A DNA stretch of 34,109 nt from Deltaproteobacteria bacterium. GTDB taxonomy: Bacteria > Myxococcota > UBA727 > JABDBI01. Shown piece by piece: positions 19,079-34,109 of this stretch. Position 1 is the stretch's first letter. Each line of letters opens with the position of its first letter. Both the position numbers and the translations under genes were made by a program. The notes below the pieces were generated by a model. The model did no database searches and had not been told where the DNA came from. It was given only the letters and a program-made list of their open reading frames with translations. Location: NCBI GenBank assembly GCA_016432245.1, contig CP066680.1, positions 1 to 34,109 of the forward strand. Direction: 5' to 3'.

Positions 19079-20128
19079 TTAAGATATTGAAGAGCCTATT
19101 CTAAGGAATTTAATTTGAGGCAAATAAAAGAATTTAAATTTGAGAATTTCTTTAGATTTGTGAATATTAAATGAAATCCCGATAATCTTTCCTTTAATAT
19201 GATTGCAAGGTACAGCTCCCCAGGTACGACTATCTAAAGAATTTCCTCTGTTGTCTCCTAATACAAATACGTATCCTTCTTTTATAGTGCAATGATTTTC
19301 GGAGCAGATTAATCCATTAAGATGCGGTGTGGATTTATTTGGCCAATTCTGTTTAGACAAAGAAGAGTATATTTTATGGGGAAGTATGGAATGGATTTTT
19401 TCTTGGCTTTCTATAATAATCTTTTTTAAGAATAATTTCTCTTTAAAAGGGATATACCATTTATATTTAAATTTTGATTGATACAATGGCTTGTTATCTA
19501 TATAGATTATAGAATCTTTTATAGAGATATTCTGACCTGCAAGAGCGATTACTCTTTTGGTCCAGACTTGGTTTGCATATTTTGGCACATAGTTTGGAGC
19601 TTCAAAAATAATAATATCTCCTTGTTTAGGGTTGCACCATGTAATTGTGTATTGATTTCGAAAAATAGGGCTTTTTAGGCCATAACAAATTTTTGAAGTG
19701 AATACAAGATCGCCTATTTGTAAGGTAGGCAGCATAGATCCAGAATATATCCTGTAATGTTGAAATGTTGATAGAAGTAAAATAAAAAGAATAAAGAAAA
19801 ACAGTAAATGTTTTTTATATTTATTTCTAGAAAAATTTGGAATATATCTATTATAGATCTTATCAATATTTTCAGTATGATTTTGAAGGTATATATTTGA
19901 TGATAATTTCATTTTATTTAGCTCTTCACTGATCTGCAAGATATTATATGTATTTGATAAGTATTTCTTTTTTGAAAAGTTATAAATTCTCTTTTTTAGA
20001 ATGTGAAATTTTATTTGAAATAGGATCCAGATAAAGAATTGATTTTTAATAAGTTTATTTATCCCGAATAGAAGTGCAATTAGGGATAGTAAATAAGGAA
20101 GTAAAATCATTTTAAAATGTTTAATCAA
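19079..20128 (-). CDS. lepB: Signal peptidase I
   Basis: It has the catalytic Ser box SGSMLPTL, the Lys box KRVIALAG, and GDNRGNSLDSR. There are two N-terminal hydrophobic segments. It follows lepA, as in the classical lepA-lepB operon, and its start overlaps the lepA 3' end by 8 nt. Confidence 0.9.
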   Translation of the reverse strand: MIKHFKMILLPYLLSLIALLFGINKLIKNQFFIWILFQIKFHILKKRIYNFSKKKYLSNTYNILQISEELNKMKLSSNIYLQNHTENIDKIYNRYIPNFSRNKYKKHLLFFFILFILLLSTFQHYRIYSGSMLPTLQIGDLVFTSKICYGLKSPIFRNQYTITWCNPKQGDIIIFEAPNYVPKYANQVWTKRVIALAGQNISIKDSIIYIDNKPLYQSKFKYKWYIPFKEKLFLKKIIIESQEKIHSILPHKIYSSLSKQNWPNKSTPHLNGLICSENHCTIKEGYVFVLGDNRGNSLDSRTWGAVPCNHIKGKIIGISFNIHKSKEILKFKFFYLPQIKFLRIGSSIS

Positions 20129-21940: not shown

Positions 21941-22495
21941 TTAGTGAGGAGTTATGGAATATAAATCTTTAATTTCATTTAATGAAAGTGTTTTGTATTC
22001 ACCAGGCTTTAATCCTGCAATAGATAGATTTCCAAAATGAGTACGAATGATTCTTAAGGTAGGATGATTGATTTTCCAGAATATTCTTTTGATTTGTCTA
22101 TTTTTTCCTTGTGTAAGGATAATTCGTATCCAAGTATTTGAAGAGGTAGTGGAAATGGGTTCTATATAGCAACTTCTTGAGCATCCCTCTTCTAAATATA
22201 TTCCTTTGTGAATTTTAAGCAGATTTGAACGGGATGGAATATTTTTTATTTTAATTTCGTAGATTTTTGGAATAAAAGAAGAGGGGTCAGTTAATTTGCC
22301 AGCAAGCAACTTGTCATTTGTTACAAGTAAGGCGCCTTCTGTGTCATAATCTAAGCGCCCAACGGTAGTTAGAGTATTGTCTTTTATTTGAAGAATATTG
22401 AAAAGTGATTTATTTAAAGGTAATTGCTTTGTGGTTGATATAAAGTTTTTTGGCTTATATACTAAGATATAGCTATATTGGTTATTGTTTAGCAT
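21941..22495 (-). CDS. RsuA/RluB/RluE-family pseudouridine synthase lacking an S4 domain (RluE-like)
   Basis: It has the catalytic motif VGRLDYDTEGALLVTND and the GKNRQIKR block. Length is 184 aa. Confidence 0.8.
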   Translation of the reverse strand: MLNNNQYSYILVYKPKNFISTTKQLPLNKSLFNILQIKDNTLTTVGRLDYDTEGALLVTNDKLLAGKLTDPSSFIPKIYEIKIKNIPSRSNLLKIHKGIYLEEGCSRSCYIEPISTTSSNTWIRIILTQGKNRQIKRIFWKINHPTLRIIRTHFGNLSIAGLKPGEYKTLSLNEIKDLYSITPH

Positions 22496-25863: not shown

Positions 25864-25907
25864 GGCTTGCAATTGTAGAAATACTTTATTATATAAAGAT
25901 AAAGCCT

Positions 25908-25921
25908 TTGATGGAGATCAG
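25908..25921. promoter_or_regulatory. FNR/CRP-family-like palindrome TTGAT-GGAG-ATCAG upstream of the cytochrome c / nos cluster
   Basis: It matches the FNR/DNR consensus TTGAT-N4-ATCAA at 9 of 10 positions. Its centre (about 25914.5) lies about 41.5 nt upstream of the start predicted from a GAAAAT -10-like hexamer (25945-25950). This is the spacing of class II FNR promoters. The site is about 80 nt upstream of the cytochrome c ATG. Confidence 0.3.
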
Positions 25922-25995
25922 TGTGGTTTTTAAGAGTTATTCCTGAAAATGGTTTATTTTAAAATGATTAGGAATCAGGGCTGGAGGTATAGTTT

Positions 25996-26508
25996 ATGAA
26001 AAAATATTTAATGGTATTTATTTGTACAACTTCATTATTTATGAGCTCTTGTATGTTTTTTAAAAAGAATACGCATTCTGGTAGTGGAGTGAATACACAA
26101 ACAGCTGTTAAATCTTTGAAAAACAAAGAAGTAGTTCGCGAAAATATGGTTACAAGTAAGATAGTTATTCCTGGTATTGGAATAGGTCCAATAAAAGATA
26201 AAATTGAAGTGTCTCTTCAAATAGATGAGTCTAAAGCGCAGCAAGGAATGACTTTATTTGGTCAAAAATGTAGTGCATGTCATAAGATTGAAGAGAAATA
26301 TGTGGGACCAGCATTAAAGGGTGTTACTAAGAGACGGCAGCCTGAGTGGATTTTAAATATGATAATGAATCCAGTTGAGATGACTCAAAAAGACGAAGTG
26401 GCAAAAGAGTTGTTAGCTGAACACTTGACTCAAATGACATATCAGAATGTTGATATAAAAGAAGCGTACGCTATTTTAGAGTACTTTAGGTTAGAGGATT
26501 CTAGATAG
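25996..26508 (+). CDS. Monoheme c-type cytochrome, probable lipoprotein and candidate electron donor to NosZ
   Basis: It has a single CSACH heme-binding motif with a downstream NPVEM (candidate Met ligand). The N-terminal signal has a lipobox-like LFMSSC. A GGAGG Shine-Dalgarno lies 8 nt upstream. The gene sits directly upstream of nosZ. Confidence 0.85.
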   Translation: MKKYLMVFICTTSLFMSSCMFFKKNTHSGSGVNTQTAVKSLKNKEVVRENMVTSKIVIPGIGIGPIKDKIEVSLQIDESKAQQGMTLFGQKCSACHKIEEKYVGPALKGVTKRRQPEWILNMIMNPVEMTQKDEVAKELLAEHLTQMTYQNVDIKEAYAILEYFRLEDSR

Positions 26509-26772
26509 AGTGACTTTTTCTGTTATTTAGTAATTTTTTTTTAAAAAAAGTTGGGAGTCTTTTAAAGATTCATTGAAATGATAAAAAAAAGATGTAATAG
26601 TATTTTTGGTGCGAGCATGCTGAATGGATAGTGTGCTTGATGGTTCTTTTTGCGTAAGTGAAAAGAGGTAGGACATGTGGAAAGGTCATATAAGATTTTC
26701 TTATGCGATTTCTTAAACTAAGTTTGGATTTTAAATTTAGCTGCATGTCTGAGTTTTAGTGGGGGATATGTT

Positions 26773-28869
26773 ATGTTAAAAGCTAAAACGTTATTTTGGG
26801 CTGTTTTATCAGCTTTAATTATTCAAGTTGGTTGTGGAAAATCTATCGAATTGCCATTCTTAAAGAAGGGAAGTAAAGAAGTTAAAGTTAACAAAGAAGT
26901 TAAAATTAACAAAGAAGTGGCAATAGAGAATGTTACAAAAGAAGGATCGAAGGATGAATTAGTGGATTCTGAAATGAATATTGGGGAAAATATGGAGAAA
27001 AAAGAAGAAGCAGGTGTTAGTATGAATCTAAGTCTGCCAAGTGATGAGGTAATCGCAGCTTCAATGACCTATGTTGCTCCAGGTTCATATGATGAATTTT
27101 ACTGGTTCATGTCAGGTGGTTATAGTGGGCAAGTTTCAGTTTATGGAATTCCATCAGGAAGATTGTTTAAGATTATTCCAGTGTTTTCCTTATTTCCAGA
27201 AAATGGATATGGATTTGAGGAAGAGACAAAAGATATGTTGCTAACTTCATATGGACATATACCATGGGATGACTCTCATCATCCAGAGGTATCATTGACT
27301 AAAGGAGAGCAAGATGGAAGGTGGCTTTTTATAAATGGAAATAATACACCACGAATCGCACGTATCGATTTAAAGTCTTTTGAAACGACTCAAATTATTG
27401 AGATCCCAAATTCTGCAGGGAACCATGGGTCTCCTTTTCTTACTGAAAATACAGAGTATTTGATGGCATCTACGCGGTTTTCAATTCCGATATTGCAATC
27501 TAACGTAGCAATTCAAGATGCTGCTAAAGGAAAGTTTAAAGGTACAATTTCTTTGGTAAGTGTTGATAAAGATACGGGAGATATGAATTTAAAGGGACAA
27601 GTTTTGGTACCAGGATATGATTATGACATTGCTCATTGTGGAAAAGGTGCGTCCCATGATTGGTGTTTTTTTACATCCTATAATACAGAACAAGCTTACG
27701 AGATGTTAGAAAGTAATTCTGCTAAAAATGAAAAAGATTATATTTTGGCATTTAATTGGGTTGGTGCGCAAAAGTGTTTTAATGATGGGAAGGCAAAAAA
27801 TGTTACTACAGCGTACTATAGGAATACGCATCCTGAGAATAAGCCGACAGTTTCGGAAAAGTTTACTAAGACAAAGTTGTTAGATCCTAAGGATTGTCCA
27901 GGAATAATGTATTATTTGCCAACGCCTAAAAATCCACATGGGTGCGATGTTGATCCGACAGGGGAATATATAGTTGCGGGTGGAAAGCTAGCTTCAATGA
28001 TACCGGTTCATTCTTTTTCTAAGTTTATGCAAGCAAAAGATAATATGGACAGTAGAGAAAGTGTAATCGACGGAATTCCCGTATTGAAGTATGAATCTAC
28101 TTTGGCAGCAGAGGTTAGTAAGCCATGCATAGGACCGCTTCATACTGAATTTGATGGCAATGGGTATGGGTATACATCATGCTTTGTAAGTTCAGAGGTT
28201 GTAAAGTGGAAATTAGGGACATGGGAAATTGTAGATAGAGTTCCTTCGTATTATAGTATAGGGCATTTGAGTATTTCTGGAGGAGATTCTGCAAAGCCGA
28301 ATCCAAAATATTTACTTGCTTTAAATAAGATAACTAAGGATAGATATCTTCCTGTTGGCGCAGAGCTTGCTCATAGTGCACAGTTGTATAGCCTTGGAGG
28401 CGATAAAATGAAATTACTTTTAGATTTTCCAACGGTTGGTGAGCCGCATTATGCACAAGGAGTTCCGGCTTCATTGTTGCAGGATAATGCACAAAGGATC
28501 TACAGACTAGATCATAATGCTCATCCATATGCAACAAAGCAAGAATCAGAAGCAAAAGTTGTCAGAGCGAAAAACGTTGTACATGTTTATATGACAGCAA
28601 TTCGTTCTCATTTTAAACCTGACACTGTTGAAGTAAAAGTAGGAGATGTTGTATATTTTCATGTAACGAATCTAGAACAGGATTATGATATTCCACATGG
28701 GTTTGCAGTTAAGGGTTCAAAAAACTCTGGAGTGTTAATTATGCCGGGCCAGACGAAAACAGTTAAATGGAATGCTGAAAAAGCAGGAATTTATCCGTTT
28801 TACTGCAGTGACTTCTGTTCAGCGTTGCATCAAGAAATGCAGCAGTATATTTTAGTAAAGGGAAAGTAA
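26773..28869 (+). CDS. nosZ: Nitrous-oxide reductase NosZ, clade II (Sec-type / lipoprotein-type signal)
   Basis: - The C-terminal CuA motif is present: HGFAV...CSDFCSALHQEM.
- The CuZ-region motif is WDDSHHPE, that is DxHH without the extra His of DxHHxH, as reported for atypical clade II enzymes.
- There is no twin-arginine motif. The signal peptide ends in IIQVGC.
- There is no C-terminal cytochrome domain.
- Length is 698 aa. Confidence 0.93.
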   Translation: MLKAKTLFWAVLSALIIQVGCGKSIELPFLKKGSKEVKVNKEVKINKEVAIENVTKEGSKDELVDSEMNIGENMEKKEEAGVSMNLSLPSDEVIAASMTYVAPGSYDEFYWFMSGGYSGQVSVYGIPSGRLFKIIPVFSLFPENGYGFEEETKDMLLTSYGHIPWDDSHHPEVSLTKGEQDGRWLFINGNNTPRIARIDLKSFETTQIIEIPNSAGNHGSPFLTENTEYLMASTRFSIPILQSNVAIQDAAKGKFKGTISLVSVDKDTGDMNLKGQVLVPGYDYDIAHCGKGASHDWCFFTSYNTEQAYEMLESNSAKNEKDYILAFNWVGAQKCFNDGKAKNVTTAYYRNTHPENKPTVSEKFTKTKLLDPKDCPGIMYYLPTPKNPHGCDVDPTGEYIVAGGKLASMIPVHSFSKFMQAKDNMDSRESVIDGIPVLKYESTLAAEVSKPCIGPLHTEFDGNGYGYTSCFVSSEVVKWKLGTWEIVDRVPSYYSIGHLSISGGDSAKPNPKYLLALNKITKDRYLPVGAELAHSAQLYSLGGDKMKLLLDFPTVGEPHYAQGVPASLLQDNAQRIYRLDHNAHPYATKQESEAKVVRAKNVVHVYMTAIRSHFKPDTVEVKVGDVVYFHVTNLEQDYDIPHGFAVKGSKNSGVLIMPGQTKTVKWNAEKAGIYPFYCSDFCSALHQEMQQYILVKGK
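26875..26919 (+). repeat. Tandem 18-bp repeat (2.5 copies) in the NosZ N-terminal linker
   Basis: The units are aaagaagttaaagttaac (26875-26892), aaagaagttaaaattaac (26893-26910) and aaagaagtg (26911-26919). They encode KEVKVN-KEVKIN-KEV. Confidence 0.9.
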
Positions 28870-28882
28870 ACCAAGAAAGACA

Positions 28883-29506
28883 ATGCGTGTATTAAAATTT
28901 AATCATGTTTTGGTAGGCCTCAGCATAATTTTTATGTTTGGGGCTTATTTTTTCCCAATTTGGCAAATAAGGTTGGCGGCTCCACAATATCCAGAAGGGT
29001 TAGGAATGGAGATATGGCTTAATAAGATAGTTGGTGTTGGAGAATTCGATTTGCAGAATATCAATCTACTAAATCACTATATCGGAATGGCGACAATAAA
29101 TGAACATAATATTTCAGAGTTGCAATATATGCCATATATGGTGTTTGCGTTGATGTTTTTTTCTTTTATTATTCTCTGTATTGATCGATCATTTGCTTTA
29201 AATCTATTGTTTAAGGGGTTGCTAGCAATTGGTCTTGTTGGTGTTTTTGATTTTTGGTATTGGGAGTATTCCTATGGGCATAATTTGAATCCAAAAGCAT
29301 CTATTAAGATCCCGGGTATGACGTATCAACCTCCGTTTTTGGGTTGTGAGAATTTATTAAATATTGTAGCATGTAGTTATCCAGGAATCGGTTTTATCTT
29401 GATTGGATTAGCTGGTTTTTGTATTTTCATTGCAGTTTTTAAGCAAAAAATTGTTGAAATTTTAAAGAGCACTGCTGAAAAGGAATTAGAGGAGATTGTG
29501 GAGTGA
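28883..29506 (+). CDS. nosB: Integral membrane protein with about 4 TM helices, NosB-like (conserved partner downstream of clade II nosZ)
   Basis: It has four hydrophobic segments: VLVGLSIIFMFGAYFFPIW, MPYMVFALMFFSFIILCI, LLAIGLVGVFDFWYW and GFILIGLAGFCIFIAVF. It lies immediately 3' of a clade-II-type nosZ, and its end overlaps nosL in a GTGA overlap. The name is assigned from gene context only. Confidence 0.5.
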   Translation: MRVLKFNHVLVGLSIIFMFGAYFFPIWQIRLAAPQYPEGLGMEIWLNKIVGVGEFDLQNINLLNHYIGMATINEHNISELQYMPYMVFALMFFSFIILCIDRSFALNLLFKGLLAIGLVGVFDFWYWEYSYGHNLNPKASIKIPGMTYQPPFLGCENLLNIVACSYPGIGFILIGLAGFCIFIAVFKQKIVEILKSTAEKELEEIVE

Positions 29507-29904
29507 GGGAGTTTGTGTTATTGCTGTGTTTTGTTTTGATAGGCTGTCAATATAGAGAACCGCTAGATGAAACGCATCGAGGAAAGGCTCAGTGTGCCAA
29601 TTGTAAAATGAATATAGTAGATTATAAGTTTCGATCTATAATTATAACGGAGAAAGGCAAAATAATTCCATTTGATTCCATAGAGTGTTTGCTTGGGTGG
29701 GGGCGTATTTATAGAAAAAAATGTCAAGTTTTTTTTTCTGATTTTAGGGCTCCGGATACTTTAATCGTAGGGAAAAAAGCTTTTATCTTAAAAAGTGATA
29801 AAAGACCATCTCCGATGGGAGGTGGATTAAGTGCATATTCAACTTTAGAATCTGTATTACAGGCACAAAGACAAGTTGGAGGCGTAAGGATTGAAATTAA
29901 ATGA
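29503..29904 (+). CDS. nosL: Copper chaperone lipoprotein NosL (GTG start)
   Basis: It has a perfect lipobox LIGC and the NosL-type CANCKM motif. Its size is about 130 aa. A GAGGAG Shine-Dalgarno lies upstream. The GTG start overlaps the nosB stop codon. Confidence 0.8.
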   Translation: MREFVLLLCFVLIGCQYREPLDETHRGKAQCANCKMNIVDYKFRSIIITEKGKIIPFDSIECLLGWGRIYRKKCQVFFSDFRAPDTLIVGKKAFILKSDKRPSPMGGGLSAYSTLESVLQAQRQVGGVRIEIK

Positions 29905-31091
29905 ATATATTTTTTTTATTATTAGGAATCTGTTTTAGTAATTTTGCTTATGCAATCGATATTCACCATCTAATAGAGATTGCTAAGCCTTTCGATGAAA
30001 TAACAATTCCTTTCGGAGCGTATAAGGTTGGGACAATTTTAATTGATAAGCCGTTGACAATAAAGGGAATAGGTATGCCTATTTTGGATGGACAGGGAGA
30101 AAAGAACACAGTAAAAATTGAGGCGCCAGATGTGATAATTGAGGGTTTTGAAATTATTGGATCTGGATATAGTGAAGTGGCAGAATATGCAGGGGTTAAG
30201 ATAGAAGCAGGAGAAAGATGTGAGGTTAAAAATAATAAATTTAACAATAATACATATTCAGTTTTCCTCGTAAAGTCAAAAGATTGTCGGATTTTTAATA
30301 ACATTATTAGTGCAGATGCAAAATATGAAGCTACAAGTGGAAATGGTGTTCATTTATGGAATTGTAAAGGTATAATTGTTGAAGATAATGTTATACGAGG
30401 ACATCGGGATGGAATATATATAGAGTTTACAACAGATTCGATGATAAAAAATAATTTATCTGAGCAAAATATTCGATATGGCCTTCATTTTATGTATTCA
30501 CATAGAAATAAATATGTAAGAAATTCTTTTTTAAACAATCAAACAGGAGTCGCAGTAATGTATTCAAAAAATATTGAAATGCTTGAGAATGATTTTCAAA
30601 AGAGCTGGGGACGGTCTTCTTATGGGTTGTTATTAAAGGATATTTCAGATAGTTATATAGGGTATAATAGTTTTAGGGGAAATACAATGGGAATTGTATG
30701 TGATGCCGCAAGTAGAAATATTTTTATTGGAAATTCTGTTAAGGATAATGGATGGGCTTTAAATATACTAGGGAATTCAGAGTCTAATTTTTTTAAGAAC
30801 AATGTTTTTATTTCTAACTTTTTTGACGCAATGACAAATGCTGAAAGAACCACAAATGTATTTTGGGGAAATTATTGGAATTTATATTTTGGATATGACT
30901 TAAATTATGATGGAATAGGGGATTCTCCATATAGGCCTATGAAGATGTTCGCTAAATGGGTTGCAAAATATCCGGAATTAACAGTTTTATTAGGATCGCC
31001 TGTAGTAGAGTTTTTAGAAATTGCAGAAAAGGTCTTTCCAATTCTTACGCCAATTACATTTATGGATTCAGCTCCATTAATGAGGAGGTAA
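29901..31091 (+). CDS. nosD: NosD, periplasmic beta-helix (CASH-domain) component of the NosDFY system
   Basis: It has an N-terminal signal and many ~22-aa N/G/I-rich repeat turns (...NN.I.....GI.L...) typical of parallel beta-helix NosD. It lies between nosL and the ABC ATPase gene, and its start overlaps nosL (ATGA). Confidence 0.85.
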   Translation: MNIFFLLLGICFSNFAYAIDIHHLIEIAKPFDEITIPFGAYKVGTILIDKPLTIKGIGMPILDGQGEKNTVKIEAPDVIIEGFEIIGSGYSEVAEYAGVKIEAGERCEVKNNKFNNNTYSVFLVKSKDCRIFNNIISADAKYEATSGNGVHLWNCKGIIVEDNVIRGHRDGIYIEFTTDSMIKNNLSEQNIRYGLHFMYSHRNKYVRNSFLNNQTGVAVMYSKNIEMLENDFQKSWGRSSYGLLLKDISDSYIGYNSFRGNTMGIVCDAASRNIFIGNSVKDNGWALNILGNSESNFFKNNVFISNFFDAMTNAERTTNVFWGNYWNLYFGYDLNYDGIGDSPYRPMKMFAKWVAKYPELTVLLGSPVVEFLEIAEKVFPILTPITFMDSAPLMRR

Positions 31092-31093
31092 AA

Positions 31094-31792
31094 ATGGATG
31101 ATTTAGTATTAGAGATTCAAGGTTTAAGGAAAAGCTATAAAAAGCAATGTGTCTTGCAACATGTGAATTTACAGGTGCAACATTCTTCAATATGTGCTTT
31201 GCTTGGACCGAATGGTTCAGGGAAAACAACGTTGCTAAAGATAATTTTAGGGCTTATATATCCCACTTCGTATATATTATTTAAAAACATCGACAAAGAG
31301 GATATTAGGTATATGCCACAGCATCCAAACTTTCCGCCAAATATAAAAGTTAGCGAATTATTGTCACTTATTCAAAGTTTAAAAAAACAAAAAGGCGAAG
31401 ATTTGGAAGAGCTTATTTACACTTTTTCAGTAGAATCTTTTTTAGATAAATGCATAAGAGAGTTATCTGGCGGAATGAAGCAAAGGGTAAATATTGTACA
31501 AGCATTTATGTTTCCAGGGTATTTGTATTTGCTAGATGAGCCAACAATGGGGCTAGATCCTCATGTTGCATTTTTATTTAAAAATCTTTTGAGAAGGAAA
31601 AGAGATCAAGGAGCTGCAATATTATTTACATCTCACATTATGAGCGAAGTGGAACAGCTTGCAGATGAATTAGTGCTTATGATTGAAGGATATGTGTATA
31701 TGCAGAGTGATCCGCAAACTATCATCACAGAGGGAGATGCTATGAATTTAGAGCAAGCACTACATCATTATTGGATTGCAAAGGTAGATTAA
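31094..31792 (+). CDS. nosF: NosF, ABC-type ATPase; the start is trimmed from the ORF-track 30956 to the ATG at 31094
   Basis: It has Walker A GPNGSGKTT, the signature LSGGMKQR and Walker B LYLLDEPTMGLD. An AGGAGG lies 5 nt upstream of the ATG at 31094. The longer ORF would overlap nosD by 136 nt, and that extra segment has no homology. Confidence 0.9.
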   Translation: MDDLVLEIQGLRKSYKKQCVLQHVNLQVQHSSICALLGPNGSGKTTLLKIILGLIYPTSYILFKNIDKEDIRYMPQHPNFPPNIKVSELLSLIQSLKKQKGEDLEELIYTFSVESFLDKCIRELSGGMKQRVNIVQAFMFPGYLYLLDEPTMGLDPHVAFLFKNLLRRKRDQGAAILFTSHIMSEVEQLADELVLMIEGYVYMQSDPQTIITEGDAMNLEQALHHYWIAKVD

Positions 31793-31793
31793 A

Positions 31794-32558
31794 ATGAAAA
31801 CTATTATATTTTACGAACTAAAAGAGATGATTAGAAATAAATGGTGGTTAGGGTATGGGTTGTCTTTTTTTATATTAAGTTCACTTATTTTTCATACAGG
31901 GGTTACGGAGTCATTAAGGGCAAGTGCATCATTGTTAAATTTAGTGCTGTTGCTTGTGCCGTTATTTTCATTGGTTTTTGGATCTATAAGCTTTGTAGAG
32001 AATATGCCATTTCAAGAGGTTTTATTGGCAATTCCAACAAGTAGGTTTTCTATATTTTTTGGCAAATGGCTTGGATTATCGATTGGTTTATCTTTGTCTT
32101 TTGTATTAGGAATGGGAGTATCTTCTCTTTGGTATTCTGTAAACGTAGTATTTCTAATGGGTTTAGGGGTGGTTTTAACATTTATATTTGTTAGTATTTC
32201 TTTTTTGTTGTCAAATTTTTTAAAAAAGAAAGAATTAATTTTTGGAATTGTTCTGCTTATATGGTTGTTATTTTTTTTAGTGTATGATGTTGCGATAATG
32301 GCAATAGTATCCTTATTGAGTGATTACCCATTGGAAAAATTAATAGTGTTGTTGGTTTTTTTTAATCCTATTGATGTTGTGCGAACAATGGTAACTATAC
32401 AAGAGGATTTATCTGCCATGATGGGATATTCAGGTGCATTGTTTTATAAATATTTTGGGAGTGGAATGGGAGTTTCTCTTTGTGGAGGGATATTGATATT
32501 GTGGATTCTTTTTCCACTAATCTTAGGATATTGGAAATATAAACGGAAAGACCTGTAA
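31794..32558 (+). CDS. nosY: NosY, ABC-2-type membrane permease
   Basis: It is a hydrophobic protein with about 6 TM helices, 254 aa long, starting 1 nt after the nosF stop codon in the canonical nosDFY order. Confidence 0.85.
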   Translation: MKTIIFYELKEMIRNKWWLGYGLSFFILSSLIFHTGVTESLRASASLLNLVLLLVPLFSLVFGSISFVENMPFQEVLLAIPTSRFSIFFGKWLGLSIGLSLSFVLGMGVSSLWYSVNVVFLMGLGVVLTFIFVSISFLLSNFLKKKELIFGIVLLIWLLFFLVYDVAIMAIVSLLSDYPLEKLIVLLVFFNPIDVVRTMVTIQEDLSAMMGYSGALFYKYFGSGMGVSLCGGILILWILFPLILGYWKYKRKDL

Positions 32559-32559
32559 T

Positions 32560-33297
32560 ATGAGAAATATTGTGTATGTTGTTTTCAGCTATTTTATAGT
32601 CTCAATTGGATTTTTGGTTAGTGGAGAAATGATTAGAGTTCCAGATGGGTTATATCATCCACTTACAATAGGGAACGATTTAGATTTTGAATATGTCAAA
32701 TCCTTTGAAATAGATCAGTATCCAGTAACTGTATTTGAGTATTTGAGGTTTTTAAAAGAGAATCCACATTGGGTAAGGTCGCAAGCGTCACCTATATATG
32801 TAGGATTTTCTTATTTGAAAAACTGGAAGAGTGACTTTGATCCAGGAGAAAAAGTTGAGTTACAAGCACCTGTTTCTCAAGTTTCATGGTTTGCTGCAAA
32901 GTATTTTTGTCATTACTATGGGAAGAGATTACCTACATTGGCTGAGTGGGAATATATAGCAGCAGAGCCTATGCCTTCAATTAAGAAAATCCTTACATTT
33001 TATATTAAACAAGACTTGCATGCGTCAACAAAGGTTGGCTTCTCTTATAAAAATAGAAATGGCATATATGGTTTGCATGGGTTGGTTTTTGAATGGGTAT
33101 TTGATTACGATTCGGATGTTTATCTTGGAGATGGAAGAGAAAGTAGTGAAGCAGAAAAGGTTGAATCTTTTTGTGGGGGAGGTGCTTTTGGAGTTTCAGA
33201 CCTGGCTAATTATCCAGCTTTTATTAGAAAATCATTTCGAAATAATTTGTATGCACAGTATTCTTCAACCAATTTAGGATTTAGGTGTGTTAAATGA
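32560..33297 (+). CDS. Formylglycine-generating-enzyme (SUMF1/FGE-sulfatase) family protein with an N-terminal membrane anchor or signal
   Basis: It has the family blocks YPVTVFEYLRFL, PVSQVSWFAAKYFCHYYGKRLPTLAEWEYIA, GLHGLVFEWVFD and LGFRCV. It starts 1 nt after the nosY stop codon and overlaps the sco start (ATGA). Confidence 0.8.
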   Translation: MRNIVYVVFSYFIVSIGFLVSGEMIRVPDGLYHPLTIGNDLDFEYVKSFEIDQYPVTVFEYLRFLKENPHWVRSQASPIYVGFSYLKNWKSDFDPGEKVELQAPVSQVSWFAAKYFCHYYGKRLPTLAEWEYIAAEPMPSIKKILTFYIKQDLHASTKVGFSYKNRNGIYGLHGLVFEWVFDYDSDVYLGDGRESSEAEKVESFCGGGAFGVSDLANYPAFIRKSFRNNLYAQYSSTNLGFRCVK

Positions 33298-33860
33298 TTT
33301 TTTGTCATAAGATGTTGCTTTTATATTATTCTATTTCAGTTTTATCGGCTAGCTTGCATGAAAAATATTCTTTCCCTTTATATACCATAAATTCAGTTTG
33401 GTATGATGATAATGGGAATCTGACCACGATGCAGTCTTTAAGAGGAGGGGTGAAAATATTTCTCATGGCTTATACGGGCTGTGAGGCTGCATGCCCCTTA
33501 TTAATAGAGGAAATTTTGAAAATAGATAAATTTTTCAATAAAGACGGAAAGGTCAATGTTTCTTTTGTTTATTTTTCGATAGATCCGGAGAATGATACGC
33601 CTGCTCGCTTAAGAGAATATAGGGAAAAAAATGGATTATCGAGAGCAAAGTGGACCCTTCTTACTTCCGATGAAAACACGGTTAGAGAACTGGCTGCTGT
33701 ATTGGGCTTTAAAATGAAAAAAGACGCAAGGGGATATTCTCATTCTAATTTGTTAACTGTAATAAATCAGAGTGGTCTTATAATGCATCAGCAGCATGAG
33801 ATCAATCAAATACAAACAGAAGCTACTATAGAAGGCATTAAGCAGGTCTTAAGCGAATAG
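33294..33860 (+). CDS. Sco1/SenC-family copper chaperone (thioredoxin fold)
   Basis: It has the CxxxCP motif YTGCEAACP and a downstream conserved His (YSHSNLL), plus an N-terminal hydrophobic anchor. Length is 188 aa. Confidence 0.85.
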   Translation: MIFCHKMLLLYYSISVLSASLHEKYSFPLYTINSVWYDDNGNLTTMQSLRGGVKIFLMAYTGCEAACPLLIEEILKIDKFFNKDGKVNVSFVYFSIDPENDTPARLREYREKNGLSRAKWTLLTSDENTVRELAAVLGFKMKKDARGYSHSNLLTVINQSGLIMHQQHEINQIQTEATIEGIKQVLSE

Positions 33861-33873
33861 ATAGGAGGAACGT

Positions 33874-34109
33874 GTGATAACGAAGTCGGGGGCTAAAAAC
33901 TTTTTTGTAATAGGTACAGTTTTATGTGGGCTTTCATTTATTGGATTAGCGTTGCTTACGTTTAGAGCAATTCCGTCTAGGACAAATGTGGTTGATATGG
34001 ATGAGTCTGTTATTCGAGGGAAAAAAATTTGGGAAAGAAAAAATTGTATGGGATGCCATACGTTGTTGGGTGAAGGTGGGTATTACGCACCAGAGTTAAC
34101 CAAAGTAAC
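33874..34109 (+). CDS. norC: NorC-like membrane-anchored cytochrome c (small subunit of nitric-oxide reductase), 5' fragment running off the window
   Basis: This gene is not in the ORF track, because it has a GTG start and is truncated by the window end. An AGGAGG (33863-33868) lies 5 nt before the GTG at 33874. The translation is VITKSGAKNFFVIGTVLCGLSFIGLALLTF...GKKIWERKNCMGCHTLLGEGGYYAPELTKV. That gives one TM helix followed by CxxCH and the GEG.Y.APEL block that I recall from NorC-type subunits. Confidence 0.7.
   Translation, partial: MITKSGAKNFFVIGTVLCGLSFIGLALLTFRAIPSRTNVVDMDESVIRGKKIWERKNCMGCHTLLGEGGYYAPELTKV

What the first reader, a model, noticed from the sequence alone, without database searches (positions are those of the whole stretch)
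25908..34109. Complete clade-II N2O-reductase module joined to a NO-reductase gene inside a genome with obligate-endosymbiont architecture
The first 25 kb carry only core information-processing and secretion genes, and they show hallmarks of extreme genome reduction. These hallmarks are AT richness (about 27% GC in two hand-counted lines), overlapping genes, degenerate priA, shortened rsmA, a detached rplC and tRNAs wedged 3-16 nt from CDS ends.

The last 8 kb are a contiguous, translationally coupled respiratory cluster: cytochrome c, nosZ, nosB-like, nosL, nosD, nosF, nosY, FGE-like, sco and norC. Every maturation component is intact, most genes have Shine-Dalgarno-like purine-rich sequences (clearest for cytochrome c, nosL, nosF and norC), and the two nosZ lines I counted were 38% and 43% GC.

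Retaining an expensive multi-copper enzyme and its assembly line in such a genome implies that denitrification is the organism's main function. That would make it an organelle-like anaerobic respiratory symbiont. From memory this matches the concept described for 'Candidatus Azoamicus' endosymbionts of anaerobic ciliates. If the 16S does not fall in that group, this would be an independent lineage with the same lifestyle.
Basis: partly seen in the sequence, partly recalled or inferred. Interest (0 to 1): 0.85.

Follow-up and report, generated by a model that had tools for sequence, protein, structure and literature searches.

The report
Denitrification operon in a tiny non-Azoamicus genome
An intact gene cluster for turning nitric oxide and nitrous oxide into nitrogen gas sits next to the replication origin of a very compact, AT-rich bacterial genome that is unrelated to the only known 'respiratory endosymbionts' (Azoamicaceae), so it is probably a second, independently evolved lineage of that kind, although its lifestyle cannot be shown from this window.

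Summary
Window 25996-34109 carries an uninterrupted + strand cluster: cytochrome c, clade II NosZ, NosB, NosL, NosD, NosF, NosY, an FGE-like protein, Sco and NorC. An independent assembly shows NorB following just past the window end. All catalytic ligands of NosZ and NorB are conserved.

The cluster belongs to the AT-rich genome around it:
- A second assembly spans the junction.
- Codon and tetranucleotide usage match on both sides.
- GC skew is continuous.
- The window's proteins sit on a 311,843-bp contig.

The organism is not an Azoamicaceae member:
- Its 16S is 76.6% identical to Ca. Azosocius agrarius, no closer than to E. coli.
- LepA and SecA group with Myxococcota-like MAGs.
- Its NosZ is clade II with NosB, whereas Azoamicaceae use clade I with NosR and ApbE.
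- Only the NO reductase is of the same subfamily (NorB 64% identical, NorC with two hemes in both).

A divergent sister with the same gene order exists in one other sample set.

Genome size (312 kb is a lower bound), the host, an ATP/ADP translocase, and nar and nir genes could not be tested here.

The parts
25864..25995 (+). Intergenic region upstream of the cluster. It probably holds the promoter and contains an FNR/Crp-like half-palindrome, TTGATggagATCAg, at 25908-25921.
   Evidence: Read from the sequence. The box count in the window equals chance, 6 found against 5.6 expected, so this is only a lead.
25996..26508 (+). Monoheme c-type cytochrome, a lipoprotein; the likely electron donor to NosZ.
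   Evidence: PF00034 match. CxxCH at residue 92 and an N-terminal ...FMSSC lipobox. A cytochrome c sits directly upstream of nosZ in most of about 80 relatives, at 34-67% identity.
26509..26772 (+). Unusually long spacer for this genome, containing a hairpin followed by a T-run at 26612-26639.
   Evidence: Relatives have 17-90 bp here. The sister lineage has about 670 bp. Function unknown.
26773..28869 (+). nosZ: clade II (Sec-dependent) nitrous-oxide reductase. It has a lipoprotein signal and a Lys/Glu-rich linker of about 70 aa.
   Evidence: TIGR04246 scores 882 bits. All CuZ and CuA ligands are conserved against 1QNI. It is 83% identical to the sister lineage, which shares the same signal peptide, and 71-75% identical to free-living clade II NosZ.
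28883..29506 (+). nosB: polytopic membrane protein specific to clade II nos clusters.
   Evidence: No Pfam or NCBIfam hit. About 4 hydrophobic segments, and the motifs LNHYIGM and YGHN are present (motifs taken from PMC9697520). It is 38-57% identical to the gene in the same position in relatives.
29503..29904 (+). nosL-like copper chaperone lipoprotein.
   Evidence: PF05573 at E=0.002, below the cut-off. Lipobox LIGC. Syntenic with NosL in relatives at 27-45% identity.
29901..31091 (+). nosD: periplasmic beta-helix maturation protein.
   Evidence: TIGR04247 scores 423 bits against a cut-off of 300.
31094..31792 (+). nosF: ABC ATPase of the NosDFY system.
   Evidence: PF00005 match. The 232-aa gene call on the Logan contig is preceded by GAGGAGG.
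31794..32558 (+). nosY: ABC-2 permease.
   Evidence: PF12679 match. It is 31-55% identical to NosY in most relatives and lies in the same position.
32560..33297 (+). FGE-sulfatase-domain protein (NirV-like), part of a nirK/nor-associated pair.
   Evidence: PF03781 at 8.7e-27. Absent after nosY in all 80 nosZ relatives. Found as an FGE-Sco pair beside nirK and/or norCB in L125, L143, L134, L099 and others, and in Ca. Azosocius agrarius at 34.5% identity.
33294..33860 (+). Sco/SenC-type copper chaperone.
   Evidence: PF02630 at 4.9e-16. The GCEAACP motif and a distal His are present. It is paired with the FGE-like gene elsewhere.
33874..34109 (+). norC, 5' part. The full gene is 237 aa and runs to window-equivalent position 34587. 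It has two hemes: a NorC domain plus a second cytochrome c domain.
   Evidence: L001 17102-17815. Matches 3O0R_C at 6.5e-34. CxxCH at residues 58 and 165. norB (cNOR; 2.6e-111 to 3O0R_B, catalytic His and Glu kept) follows at window-equivalent 34597 onward.
10870..11140 (.). Context: candidate replication origin, 15 kb from the cluster. The cluster lies on the leading strand.
   Evidence: The cumulative GC-skew minimum falls at about 11 kb, and the skew is independent of gene strand. DnaA-box-like 9-mers cluster directly upstream of dnaN.

Best explanation
**What it is.** The region is a functional, co-transcribed respiratory operon for the last two steps of denitrification.
- A cNOR (NorC with two hemes, plus NorB) reduces NO to N2O.
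- A membrane-tethered clade II NosZ reduces N2O to N2.
- NosZ is probably fed by the lipoprotein cytochrome c encoded just upstream.
- NosB, NosL, NosDFY and a Sco/FGE-like copper-handling pair support maturation.

**How it arose.** The operon fuses two modules that occur separately in free-living bacteria: cytc-nosZBLDFY, and (nirK)-FGE-sco-norCB.

**Where it sits.** It lies about 15 kb from the replication origin, on the leading strand. The genome is very gene-dense and AT-rich, and its contig is at least 312 kb long.

**Who carries it.** The organism belongs to an undescribed lineage. Its nearest relatives are low-GC, Myxococcota-like metagenomic bacteria. It is not a member of the gammaproteobacterial Azoamicaceae.

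**Inferred, not shown.** The genome is small (about 0.3 Mb) and host-dependent, and N-oxide respiration is one of the few energy functions it has kept. That would make it a second, convergent lineage of respiratory symbiont.
For: **Cluster identity and intactness.**

**Modules.** The nos order is conserved in about 80 relatives. FGE-sco occurs with nirK/norCB in L125, L143 and Azosocius.

**Same genome as its surroundings.**
- An independent Logan contig runs from dnaN to norB.
- GC3 is low throughout.
- RSCU correlation between the two halves is r=0.83 and tetranucleotide correlation is r=0.97.
- GC skew is continuous across the junction.

**Selection.** Between the window and its sister, NosZ (83%) is better conserved than LepA (74%), DnaB (70%), SecA (66%), LepB (46%) and PriA (37%).

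**Not Azoamicaceae.**
- No match to the Azoamicus probe.
- 16S is 76.6% identical to Azosocius and 76.5% to E. coli.
- LepA and SecA are 57-61% identical to Myxococcota MAGs, against 53% and 46% to E. coli.
- Azosocius NosZ is only 31.6% identical and scores as the TAT/clade I type.
- The Azoamicaceae nos locus contains apbE and nosR.

**Reduction.**
- The contig is 311,843 bp.
- Coding density is 95%.
- There are 6 dispersed tRNA genes and 2 aminoacyl-tRNA synthetase genes in 34 kb.
- rsmA is truncated, and genes between rsmA and dnaN have been lost relative to L089 and L177.

**Habitat.** The organism occurs in run SRR12113422. The neighbouring run, SRR12113421, yielded Ca. Azosocius agrarius and a plagiopylean 18S.
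Against: - 311,843 bp is only a lower bound on genome size. The contig itself could not be read.
- No ATP/ADP translocase, nar/nap, nir, bc1 or ATP synthase could be examined.
- Relatives with ordinary gene content already have 31-35% GC, so AT richness is partly ancestral.
- Most proteins are not shortened. SecA is 864 aa against 866-923 aa in relatives, and ValS is 941 aa against 926-955 aa.
- Many clade II NosZ carriers are free-living N2O reducers that do not denitrify.
- Phylum placement rests on two proteins and 1 kb of 16S, and the closest relatives are unnamed.
- No expression data are available.
Confidence: 0.7

Rival explanations
1. The organism is a free-living, epibiotic or predatory bacterium with a small, streamlined genome. 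It uses NO and N2O respiration only for itself. It is not an intracellular, ATP-supplying symbiont of a protist.
For: - Nearest named relatives are Myxococcota or 'Deltaproteobacteria' MAGs.
- Related low-GC contigs (L175, L177, L090) carry ordinary genes such as mur, glmM, ribF and ATP synthase.
- Clade II nosZ is common in free-living N2O reducers.
- Groundwater is rich in small-genome organisms that are not endosymbionts.
- Nothing in the window speaks to host contact.
Against: - Universal genes are very dense: a 16S gene, 6 tRNAs, 2 aminoacyl-tRNA synthetases, and replication and secretion core genes. There are no regulators, transporters or biosynthetic genes in 25 kb.
- rsmA is truncated and neighbouring genes are lost.
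- Housekeeping proteins have evolved fast relative to the sister lineage.
- The 312-kb contig is in the size range of the known respiratory endosymbionts, 234-374 kb.
Confidence: 0.25
2. The window comes from a member of the already described Candidatus Azoamicaceae, for example Ca. Azosocius agrarius, which comes from the same groundwater project.
For: - Same BioProject and a neighbouring sequencing run.
- Similar contig size.
- The NO reductase is of the same subfamily: NorB 64% identical, NorC with two hemes, and an FGE-like/Sco pair present in both.
Against: - 16S is 76.6% identical to Ca. Azosocius agrarius, the same as to E. coli.
- The Azoamicus probe site is absent.
- The 16S shows non-gammaproteobacterial signatures, for example GTTGTTCGGAATTATTGGGCGTAAAG against GTTAATCGG....
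- LepA and SecA are nearest to Myxococcota-like sequences.
- NosZ is of the other clade, 31.6% identical.
- There is no nosR or apbE in the cluster.
- GC is 32%, against 20-26% in Azoamicaceae.
Confidence: 0.02
3. The junction of housekeeping genes and the nos/nor cluster is an assembly chimera, or a very recent foreign insertion that says nothing about the organism's biology.
For: - GC rises slightly at the cluster, to 31-39% from 23-35%.
- Shine-Dalgarno sequences are clearer in the cluster than in most housekeeping genes.
Against: - A separate Logan assembly of SRR12113422 carries dnaN through rnhA, cytochrome c, nosZ and on to norB on a single contig.
- GC3 in the cluster is 0.22-0.33, far below that expected from close homologues with 41-45% GC.
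- RSCU correlation is r=0.83 with the window's housekeeping genes but 0.21 with the L083 nos cluster. Tetranucleotide correlation is r=0.97.
- GC skew stays positive across the junction.
- The sister lineage has an equally AT-shifted nosZ (36.9% GC) with the same lineage-specific signal peptide.
Confidence: 0.03

Closest known systems
Candidatus Azoamicaceae (Ca. Azoamicus, Ca. Azosocius): denitrifying, ATP-supplying endosymbionts of plagiopylean ciliates (Graf 2021, PMC7969357; Speth 2024, PMC11549363; PMC12676724)
   Same: - A compact AT-rich genome, on a contig of the same size class (312 kb against 234-374 kb).
- It retains nos and nor with their maturation genes.
- The cNOR is of the same subfamily. 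NorB is 64% identical, NorC has two hemes in both, and an FGE-like/Sco pair is present in both.
- It occurs in the same California groundwater project.
   Different: - The phylum or class differs. 16S is 76.6% identical, and LepA and SecA are Myxococcota-like.
- NosZ is clade II/Sec-type with NosB here. In Azoamicaceae it is clade I/TAT-type with NosR and ApbE.
- nos and nor are fused into one locus here but sit at separate loci there.
- GC is 32% here and 20-26% there.
- tlcA, nar and nirK are unknown here.
Clade II nos clusters of free-living bacteria (Leptospira, 'Deltaproteobacteria' CG11 MAG PCXA01, Ignavibacteria/Melioribacter, Gemmatimonadota, Bacteroidota)
   Same: - The gene order is identical: cytc-nosZ-nosB-nosL-nosD-nosF-nosY.
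- NosZ is 60-72% identical.
- The NosB motifs and a Sec-type export signal are shared.
   Different: - These are ordinary large genomes with regulators nearby, for example PAS kinase, Crp and NnrS in L083.
- None has FGE-sco-norCB directly after nosY.
- NosZ there lacks the lipoprotein anchor and the 70-aa linker.
nirK-nirV(FGE-like)-senC/sco-norCB denitrification clusters (metagenome contigs L125 and L143; nirV of Rhodobacter sphaeroides as cited in PMC4770552)
   Same: - The gene string FGE-like, Sco, NorC, NorB occurs contiguously in L125.
- L143 even has nosY followed directly by norCB.
   Different: - In those clusters nirK immediately precedes the FGE-like gene. In the window that position is taken by nosY, with a 1-nt gap, so nirK lies elsewhere or has been lost.
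- norQ and norD follow norB in L125. Whether they do here is unknown, because the contig ends.

Membership tests
Candidatus Azoamicaceae (Gammaproteobacteria, order UBA6186/Azoamicales) | 16S rRNA groups with Azoamicus/Azosocius and carries the target of probe eub62A3_813 | tested here: not met
   No probe match with up to 3 mismatches. Identity to Ca. Azosocius agrarius 16S is 76.6% over 911 nt, against 76.5% to E. coli.
Candidatus Azoamicaceae (Gammaproteobacteria, order UBA6186/Azoamicales) | Housekeeping proteins of gammaproteobacterial descent | tested here: not met
   The named hits nearest the top for LepA and SecA are Myxococcota or Deltaproteobacteria, and no Gammaproteobacteria appear among the best 120 listed. 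Identity to E. coli is lower than to these hits. See also the NJ tree.
Candidatus Azoamicaceae (Gammaproteobacteria, order UBA6186/Azoamicales) | nos locus of type apbE-nosZ-nosR-cytc5-nosDFYL, with a clade I-type NosZ | tested here: not met
   The window has cytc-nosZ(clade II)-nosB-nosL-nosDFY and no nosR or apbE. The Azosocius NosZ fragment scores TIGR04244 436 against TIGR04246 265. The same stretch of the window's NosZ scores 187 against 437.
Candidatus Azoamicaceae (Gammaproteobacteria, order UBA6186/Azoamicales) | nirK adjacent to norBC; cNOR with accessory FGE-like and Sco genes | tested here: inconclusive
   cNOR of the same subfamily and the FGE/Sco pair are present. nirK is not in the window or on L001, and the contig ends inside norB.
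Candidatus Azoamicaceae (Gammaproteobacteria, order UBA6186/Azoamicales) | Genome of 234-374 kb with 20-26% GC | tested here: inconclusive
   The contig is 311,843 bp, a lower bound. Window GC is 31.9%.
Candidatus Azoamicaceae (Gammaproteobacteria, order UBA6186/Azoamicales) | ATP/ADP translocase tlcA, narGHI, and complexes I, II, III and V | not testable with these tools
   These lie outside the window. The source contig was not returned by either collection scan.
Clade II (Sec-dependent) nos gene cluster | NosZ above the TIGR04246 cut-off, with all CuZ and CuA ligands | tested here: met
   882 bits against a cut-off of 625. Ligands checked against 1QNI.
Clade II (Sec-dependent) nos gene cluster | Sec-type rather than twin-arginine signal peptide | tested here: met
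   The N-terminus MLKAKTLFWAVLSALIIQVGC has no RR motif and carries a lipobox.
Clade II (Sec-dependent) nos gene cluster | nosB next to nosZ; no nosR or nosX | tested here: met
   The 207-aa membrane protein carries LNHYIGM and YGHN. No NosR or NosX family hit occurs in the cluster.
Clade II (Sec-dependent) nos gene cluster | nosL, nosD, nosF and nosY present and full length | tested here: met
   NosL is supported only by a sub-threshold Pfam match plus synteny.
cNOR (cytochrome c-dependent NO reductase, NorCB) | NorB with heme b and b3 His ligands, FeB His3 + Glu, plus a NorC subunit | tested here: met
   2.6e-111 to 3O0R_B. The equivalents of H60, H207, E211, E215, H258, H259, E280, H347 and H349 are conserved. 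NorC matches at 6.5e-34.
cNOR (cytochrome c-dependent NO reductase, NorCB) | norQ and norD maturation genes | not testable with these tools
   The Logan contig ends within the norB 3' extension.
Obligate-endosymbiont-type reduced genome | Total genome well below 1 Mb, with loss of biosynthesis and regulation | tested here: inconclusive
   Only a 311,843-bp contig length is known. The window shows 95% coding density, no regulators, and dense tRNA and aminoacyl-tRNA synthetase genes. Relatives are also low in GC.
Obligate-endosymbiont-type reduced genome | Physical location inside a host cell | not testable with these tools
   Needs FISH or single-cell data.

The most novel reading that the evidence does not exclude
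This is a second origin of an organelle-like, N-oxide-respiring endosymbiont of anaerobic protists, phylogenetically independent of the first. It arose in a Myxococcota-like lineage rather than in Gammaproteobacteria. It was built from a different N2O reductase clade (clade II with NosB) but the same cNOR subfamily. It lives in the same nitrate-rich groundwater as Ca. Azosocius agrarius. If so, respiratory endosymbiosis would be a repeatable evolutionary outcome, not a one-off.
Probability: 0.45. Interest if true: 0.9.

Novelty: new variant of a known kind. Interest (0 to 1): 0.8.

Why it matters
In the papers searched here, Azoamicaceae are the only described bacteria that appear to act as anaerobic, mitochondrion-like power plants for a eukaryote.

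A second lineage would allow several questions to be asked for the first time:
- Which features of such symbioses are necessary. Both lineages share the cNOR subfamily, the copper chaperone pair and the genome size class.
- Which features are contingent. NosZ clade I and clade II differ, as do locus organisation and donor lineages.
- Whether the denitrification genes were inherited vertically from denitrifying ancestors, as low-GC relatives with 73-75% identical NosZ hint, or were acquired laterally, as proposed for Azoamicaceae.

It also matters for N2O budgets. Clade II NosZ carriers are N2O sinks, and protist-hosted ones are not counted in current models.

The 515F and 806R primer sites are intact in this 16S, so the lineage can be searched for in existing amplicon surveys.

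Tried and rejected
1. **P0005.** This NosZ (72% identical) lies on a 369,688-bp JGI contig and looked like a possible endosymbiont. Its neighbourhood has PAS kinase, Crp, NnrS and a P-type ATPase at 41% GC, so it is an ordinary bacterium.
2. **L140.** This contig comes from Hainich well H41, the site of Ca. Azosocius aquiferis, and was checked as a possible Azoamicaceae norB. It has 54% GC and 41% identity, so it is unrelated.
3. **FNR/Crp box upstream of cytochrome c (25908-25921).** The number of such boxes in the window equals chance, so it is kept only as a lead.
4. **Scans for the source genome.** Scans of GTDB genomes and JGI metagenomes, for the source genome or for contigs extending past the window, found only relatives at 75% identity or less.
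5. **Walking outward through Logan contigs.** The contigs end at dnaN, norB (25.4 kb) and the 16S (9.9 kb).
6. **Window 16S against all fetched loci.** No hits.
7. **Promoter and terminator consensus scans.** Counts do not differ from shuffled sequence.
8. **Literature searches.** Searches for a Myxococcota or deltaproteobacterial denitrifying endosymbiont, and for the run accessions, found no description of this lineage.

Full report
**1. What is in the window**

Rfam places the 5' 1,038 positions of a bacterial 16S rRNA at 1-1036 on the - strand, and there are six tRNA genes.

NCBIfam and Pfam identify these genes between 1.8 and 25.9 kb:
- rplC, valS, rho, pepA and cysS
- dnaN, rsmA, secA, priA, dnaB, lepB and lepA
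- a pseudouridine synthase, rlmB, a UvrD-like helicase and rnhA

From 25,996 to the end of the window, all genes are on the + strand:
- A monoheme cytochrome c.
- NosZ, which scores 882 bits on TIGR04246 (Sec-dependent) against a cut-off of 625. The TAT-type model scores 345.
- A 207-aa membrane protein.
- A 133-aa lipoprotein with a weak NosL match.
- NosD, NosF and NosY.
- An FGE-sulfatase-domain protein, Sco, and the start of NorC.

The 207-aa protein has no family hit. It does contain both sequence motifs published for NosB, LNHYIGM and YGHN (PMC9697520).

A Logan assembly of run SRR12113422 (contig 18257, 25,411 bp) covers dnaN through this cluster and continues 2.1 kb past the window end. 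It shows NorC complete at 237 aa, followed by NorB.
- NorC residues 2-135 match P. aeruginosa NorC at 6.5e-34. A second CxxCH lies at residue 165.
- NorB residues 2-436 match P. aeruginosa NorB at 2.6e-111.
- All seven CuZ histidines and the CuA ligands of NosZ are conserved, as are the heme and FeB ligands of NorB.

**2. The cluster belongs to this genome**
- The independent Logan contig spans the suspected junction.
- GC3 is 0.22-0.33 in the cluster and 0.17-0.29 in the housekeeping genes.
- Codon usage of the cluster correlates with the window's housekeeping genes (r=0.83). It does not correlate with a close free-living nos cluster (L083, r=0.21). Tetranucleotide composition correlates at r=0.97.
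- GC skew switches sign at about 11 kb, independently of gene orientation, and stays positive through the cluster.
- The switch coincides with an AT-rich 270-bp spacer upstream of dnaN that holds several DnaA-box-like 9-mers.

The cluster therefore lies about 15-25 kb from the likely origin, on the leading strand.

**3. Anatomy compared with relatives**

A scan of one genome per GTDB species returned 80 loci with NosZ 56-71% identical. Nearly all show the order cytc-nosZ-nosB-nosL-nosD-nosF-nosY. None has the FGE-like gene or Sco after nosY. Only one, a Leptospira MAG, has norCB within 10 kb.

A scan of metagenome contigs with NorB showed where the FGE-like/Sco pair belongs:
- In L125 the order is nirK, FGE-like, Sco, norC, norB, a porin, norQ, norD.
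- In L143 a complete nos cluster is followed directly by norCB, and nirK-FGE-like-Sco lies further on.

The window's locus is thus a head-to-tail fusion of two known modules. In the window, nosY occupies the position where nirK usually sits. The FGE-like protein is best read as NirV-like. NirV is the accessory gene often found beside nirK (PMC4770552). That name rests on domain and context, not on a test.

**4. Who carries it**

The window's LepA and SecA are each recorded on a contig of 311,843 bp.

One sister organism exists in public data (ENA ERZ27297709; Logan SRR14366756 and SRR14366757):
- Identities are LepA 74%, DnaB 70%, SecA 66%, LepB 46%, PriA 37% and NosZ 83%.
- It has the same rlmB-rlu-lepA-lepB-dnaB-priA order and 29% GC.
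- Its NosZ has the same lipoprotein signal peptide.

NosZ is the best conserved of all the proteins compared. This argues for strong purifying selection on it.

Beyond the sister, named LepA and SecA hits are Myxococcota or 'Deltaproteobacteria' MAGs at 57-61%, against 53% and 46% for E. coli. The list of the best 120 hits contains no Gammaproteobacteria.

In a SecA neighbour-joining tree, the window and its sister join a group of unnamed sequences beside the Myxococcota clade. The contigs read from that group have low GC. Those contigs (L175, L177, L178; 31-35% GC) share local synteny with the window:
- secA-rsmA is convergent with dnaN.
- valS is followed by a homologue of the window's orf131, at 60% identity.

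They have longer rsmA genes (255-286 aa against 194 aa). L177, and the more distant L089, carry extra genes between rsmA and dnaN.

The window lineage is therefore a more compact offshoot of an already AT-rich clade. Phylum assignment remains provisional.

**5. Direct test against Azoamicaceae**
- Azoamicus probe eub62A3_813 (PMC7969357) has no match in the window at up to 3 mismatches.
- The genome of Ca. Azosocius agrarius is given as Supplementary Dataset 1 of PMC11549363, and I read the relevant parts. Its 16S is 76.6% identical to the window's over 911 nt. E. coli is 76.5% identical.
- The C-terminal 293 residues of its NosZ are 31.6% identical to the window's. That fragment scores 436 bits on the TAT-type model and 265 on the Sec-type model. 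The same stretch of the window's NosZ scores 187 and 437.
- Its nos locus is apbE-nosZ-nosR-cytc5-nosD-nosF-nosY-nosL.
- Its NorB is 63.8% identical and its NorC 45.6% identical over the full two-heme length. FGE-like (34.5%) and Sco (29%) genes lie between norD and nirK.

The two lineages share a cNOR subfamily and a copper-handling pair. They use different N2O reductase systems and belong to different phyla or classes.

The window's organism was sequenced in SRR12113422. The adjacent run, SRR12113421, from the same California groundwater project, is the source of Ca. Azosocius agrarius and of a plagiopylean ciliate 18S.

**6. How it most likely works**

Shown:
- The gene products, their cofactor ligands and their export signals.
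- The operon-like packing and the position near the origin.

Established for these enzyme families:
- cNOR takes electrons from c-type cytochromes and reduces 2 NO to N2O.
- NosZ reduces N2O to N2.
- NosDFY and NosL build CuZ, and Sco-type proteins serve CuA-type sites.
- NosB is required for clade II N2O respiration in Wolinella (cited in PMC9697520).

Inferred:
- The upstream lipoprotein cytochrome c and the second heme domain of NorC wire both enzymes to a bc-type complex encoded elsewhere.
- Anchoring NosZ and the cytochrome c to the membrane keeps the chain together.
- The organism depends on a host.

**7. Limits**
- I could not read the 312-kb contig, so genome size, tlcA, nar, nir, bc1 and ATP synthase are open.
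- Density of universal genes gives a rough size estimate. There are six tRNAs and two aminoacyl-tRNA synthetases in 34 kb. If these are evenly spread, the genome would be about 0.2-0.35 Mb. This is an estimate, not a measurement.
- No paper in the searchable library describes this lineage. The genome may nevertheless already be deposited without comment.

**8. Verdict**
Every testable element favoured it, apart from the role assigned to FGE and Sco and the weight placed on AT richness.
- The lifestyle remains an inference.
- The most interesting reading, a convergent second lineage of respiratory endosymbionts, is plausible at about 0.45. It can be tested directly with the public reads.

Noticed in passing
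window 10870-11140: Probable chromosomal origin. The cumulative GC-skew minimum falls here. The AT-rich spacer holds two copies of TTTTCCACA and three more near-consensus DnaA boxes, directly upstream of dnaN. No dnaA gene is adjacent: the neighbours are tRNA-Lys and cysS.
   Followed up: partly
L001 19130-19459 (window-equivalent about 35900-36232, beyond the window end): NorB continues past its catalytic core (about residue 440) into a tail of at least 100 aa. The tail is extremely acidic (runs of D and E) and reaches the contig end without a stop codon. It is absent from Azosocius NorB (444 aa) and from metagenome relatives.
   Followed up: partly
window 33874-34109 and L001 17102-17815: NorC has two hemes: a NorC domain fused to a second cytochrome c domain. 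The same architecture occurs in the closest NorB relatives (L092, L093, L095, L105, L138) and in Ca. Azosocius agrarius.
   Followed up: yes
window 26773-27060 and 25996-26060: NosZ and the upstream cytochrome c both begin with lipoprotein-type signals. In NosZ the signal is followed by a Lys/Glu-rich linker of about 70 aa. The signal is nearly identical in the sister lineage while the linker has diverged. Free-living relatives lack this extension.
   Followed up: partly
window 26509-26772: A 264-bp non-coding spacer lies before nosZ in a genome that is otherwise 95% coding. It contains an 11-bp-stem hairpin plus a T-run at 26612-26639. The sister lineage has an even longer gap (about 670 bp), while relatives have under 100 bp. 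It could be a regulatory leader or a decayed gene.
   Followed up: no
window 5821-6216: orf131 has no family hit but is a real gene. A 60% identical homologue sits in the same place after valS on the low-GC relative L175 (8823-9230).
   Followed up: partly
window 505-525 (16S, - strand): The near-universal 16S stretch GCGGTAATAC reads GCGGTAAATC here, which fits a fast-evolving rRNA. The 515F and 806R primer target sites are intact, so amplicon surveys should detect the lineage.
   Followed up: partly
window 1856-2644: rplC stands alone between valS and a tRNA-Lys, with no S10-operon neighbours. Its product is 262 aa, about 55 aa longer at the C-terminus than the L3 model.
   Followed up: no
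window 1263-1766: A 167-aa ORF (TTG start, 40% GC, no family hit) lies between the 16S 5' end and tRNA-Lys and overlaps the tRNA. It may be spurious, and the region may instead be an rRNA leader.
   Followed up: no
L090 (10001-11929), L178, L086: Low-GC contigs (33-35% GC) from one run series (SRR22387xxx to SRR22388xxx) carry the next-closest NosZ (73-75%) and, in the same run SRR22388219, a SecA from the window's clade. In L090, nosZ sits among housekeeping genes with no nos accessory genes downstream. This hints that nosZ was inherited vertically within this clade.
   Followed up: partly
window 25908-25921: TTGATggagATCAg, one mismatch from an FNR/DNR-type box, lies about 75-88 bp upstream of the cytochrome c start codon. 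It is the only such site in an intergenic region, but the total count in the window is at chance level.
   Followed up: yes
window 12250-12253, 12831-12834, 20121-20128, 22489-22495, 29503-29506, 29901-29904, 33294-33297: Short gene overlaps (4-8 bp) occur throughout. They include a convergent overlap of dnaN and the truncated rsmA.
   Followed up: yes
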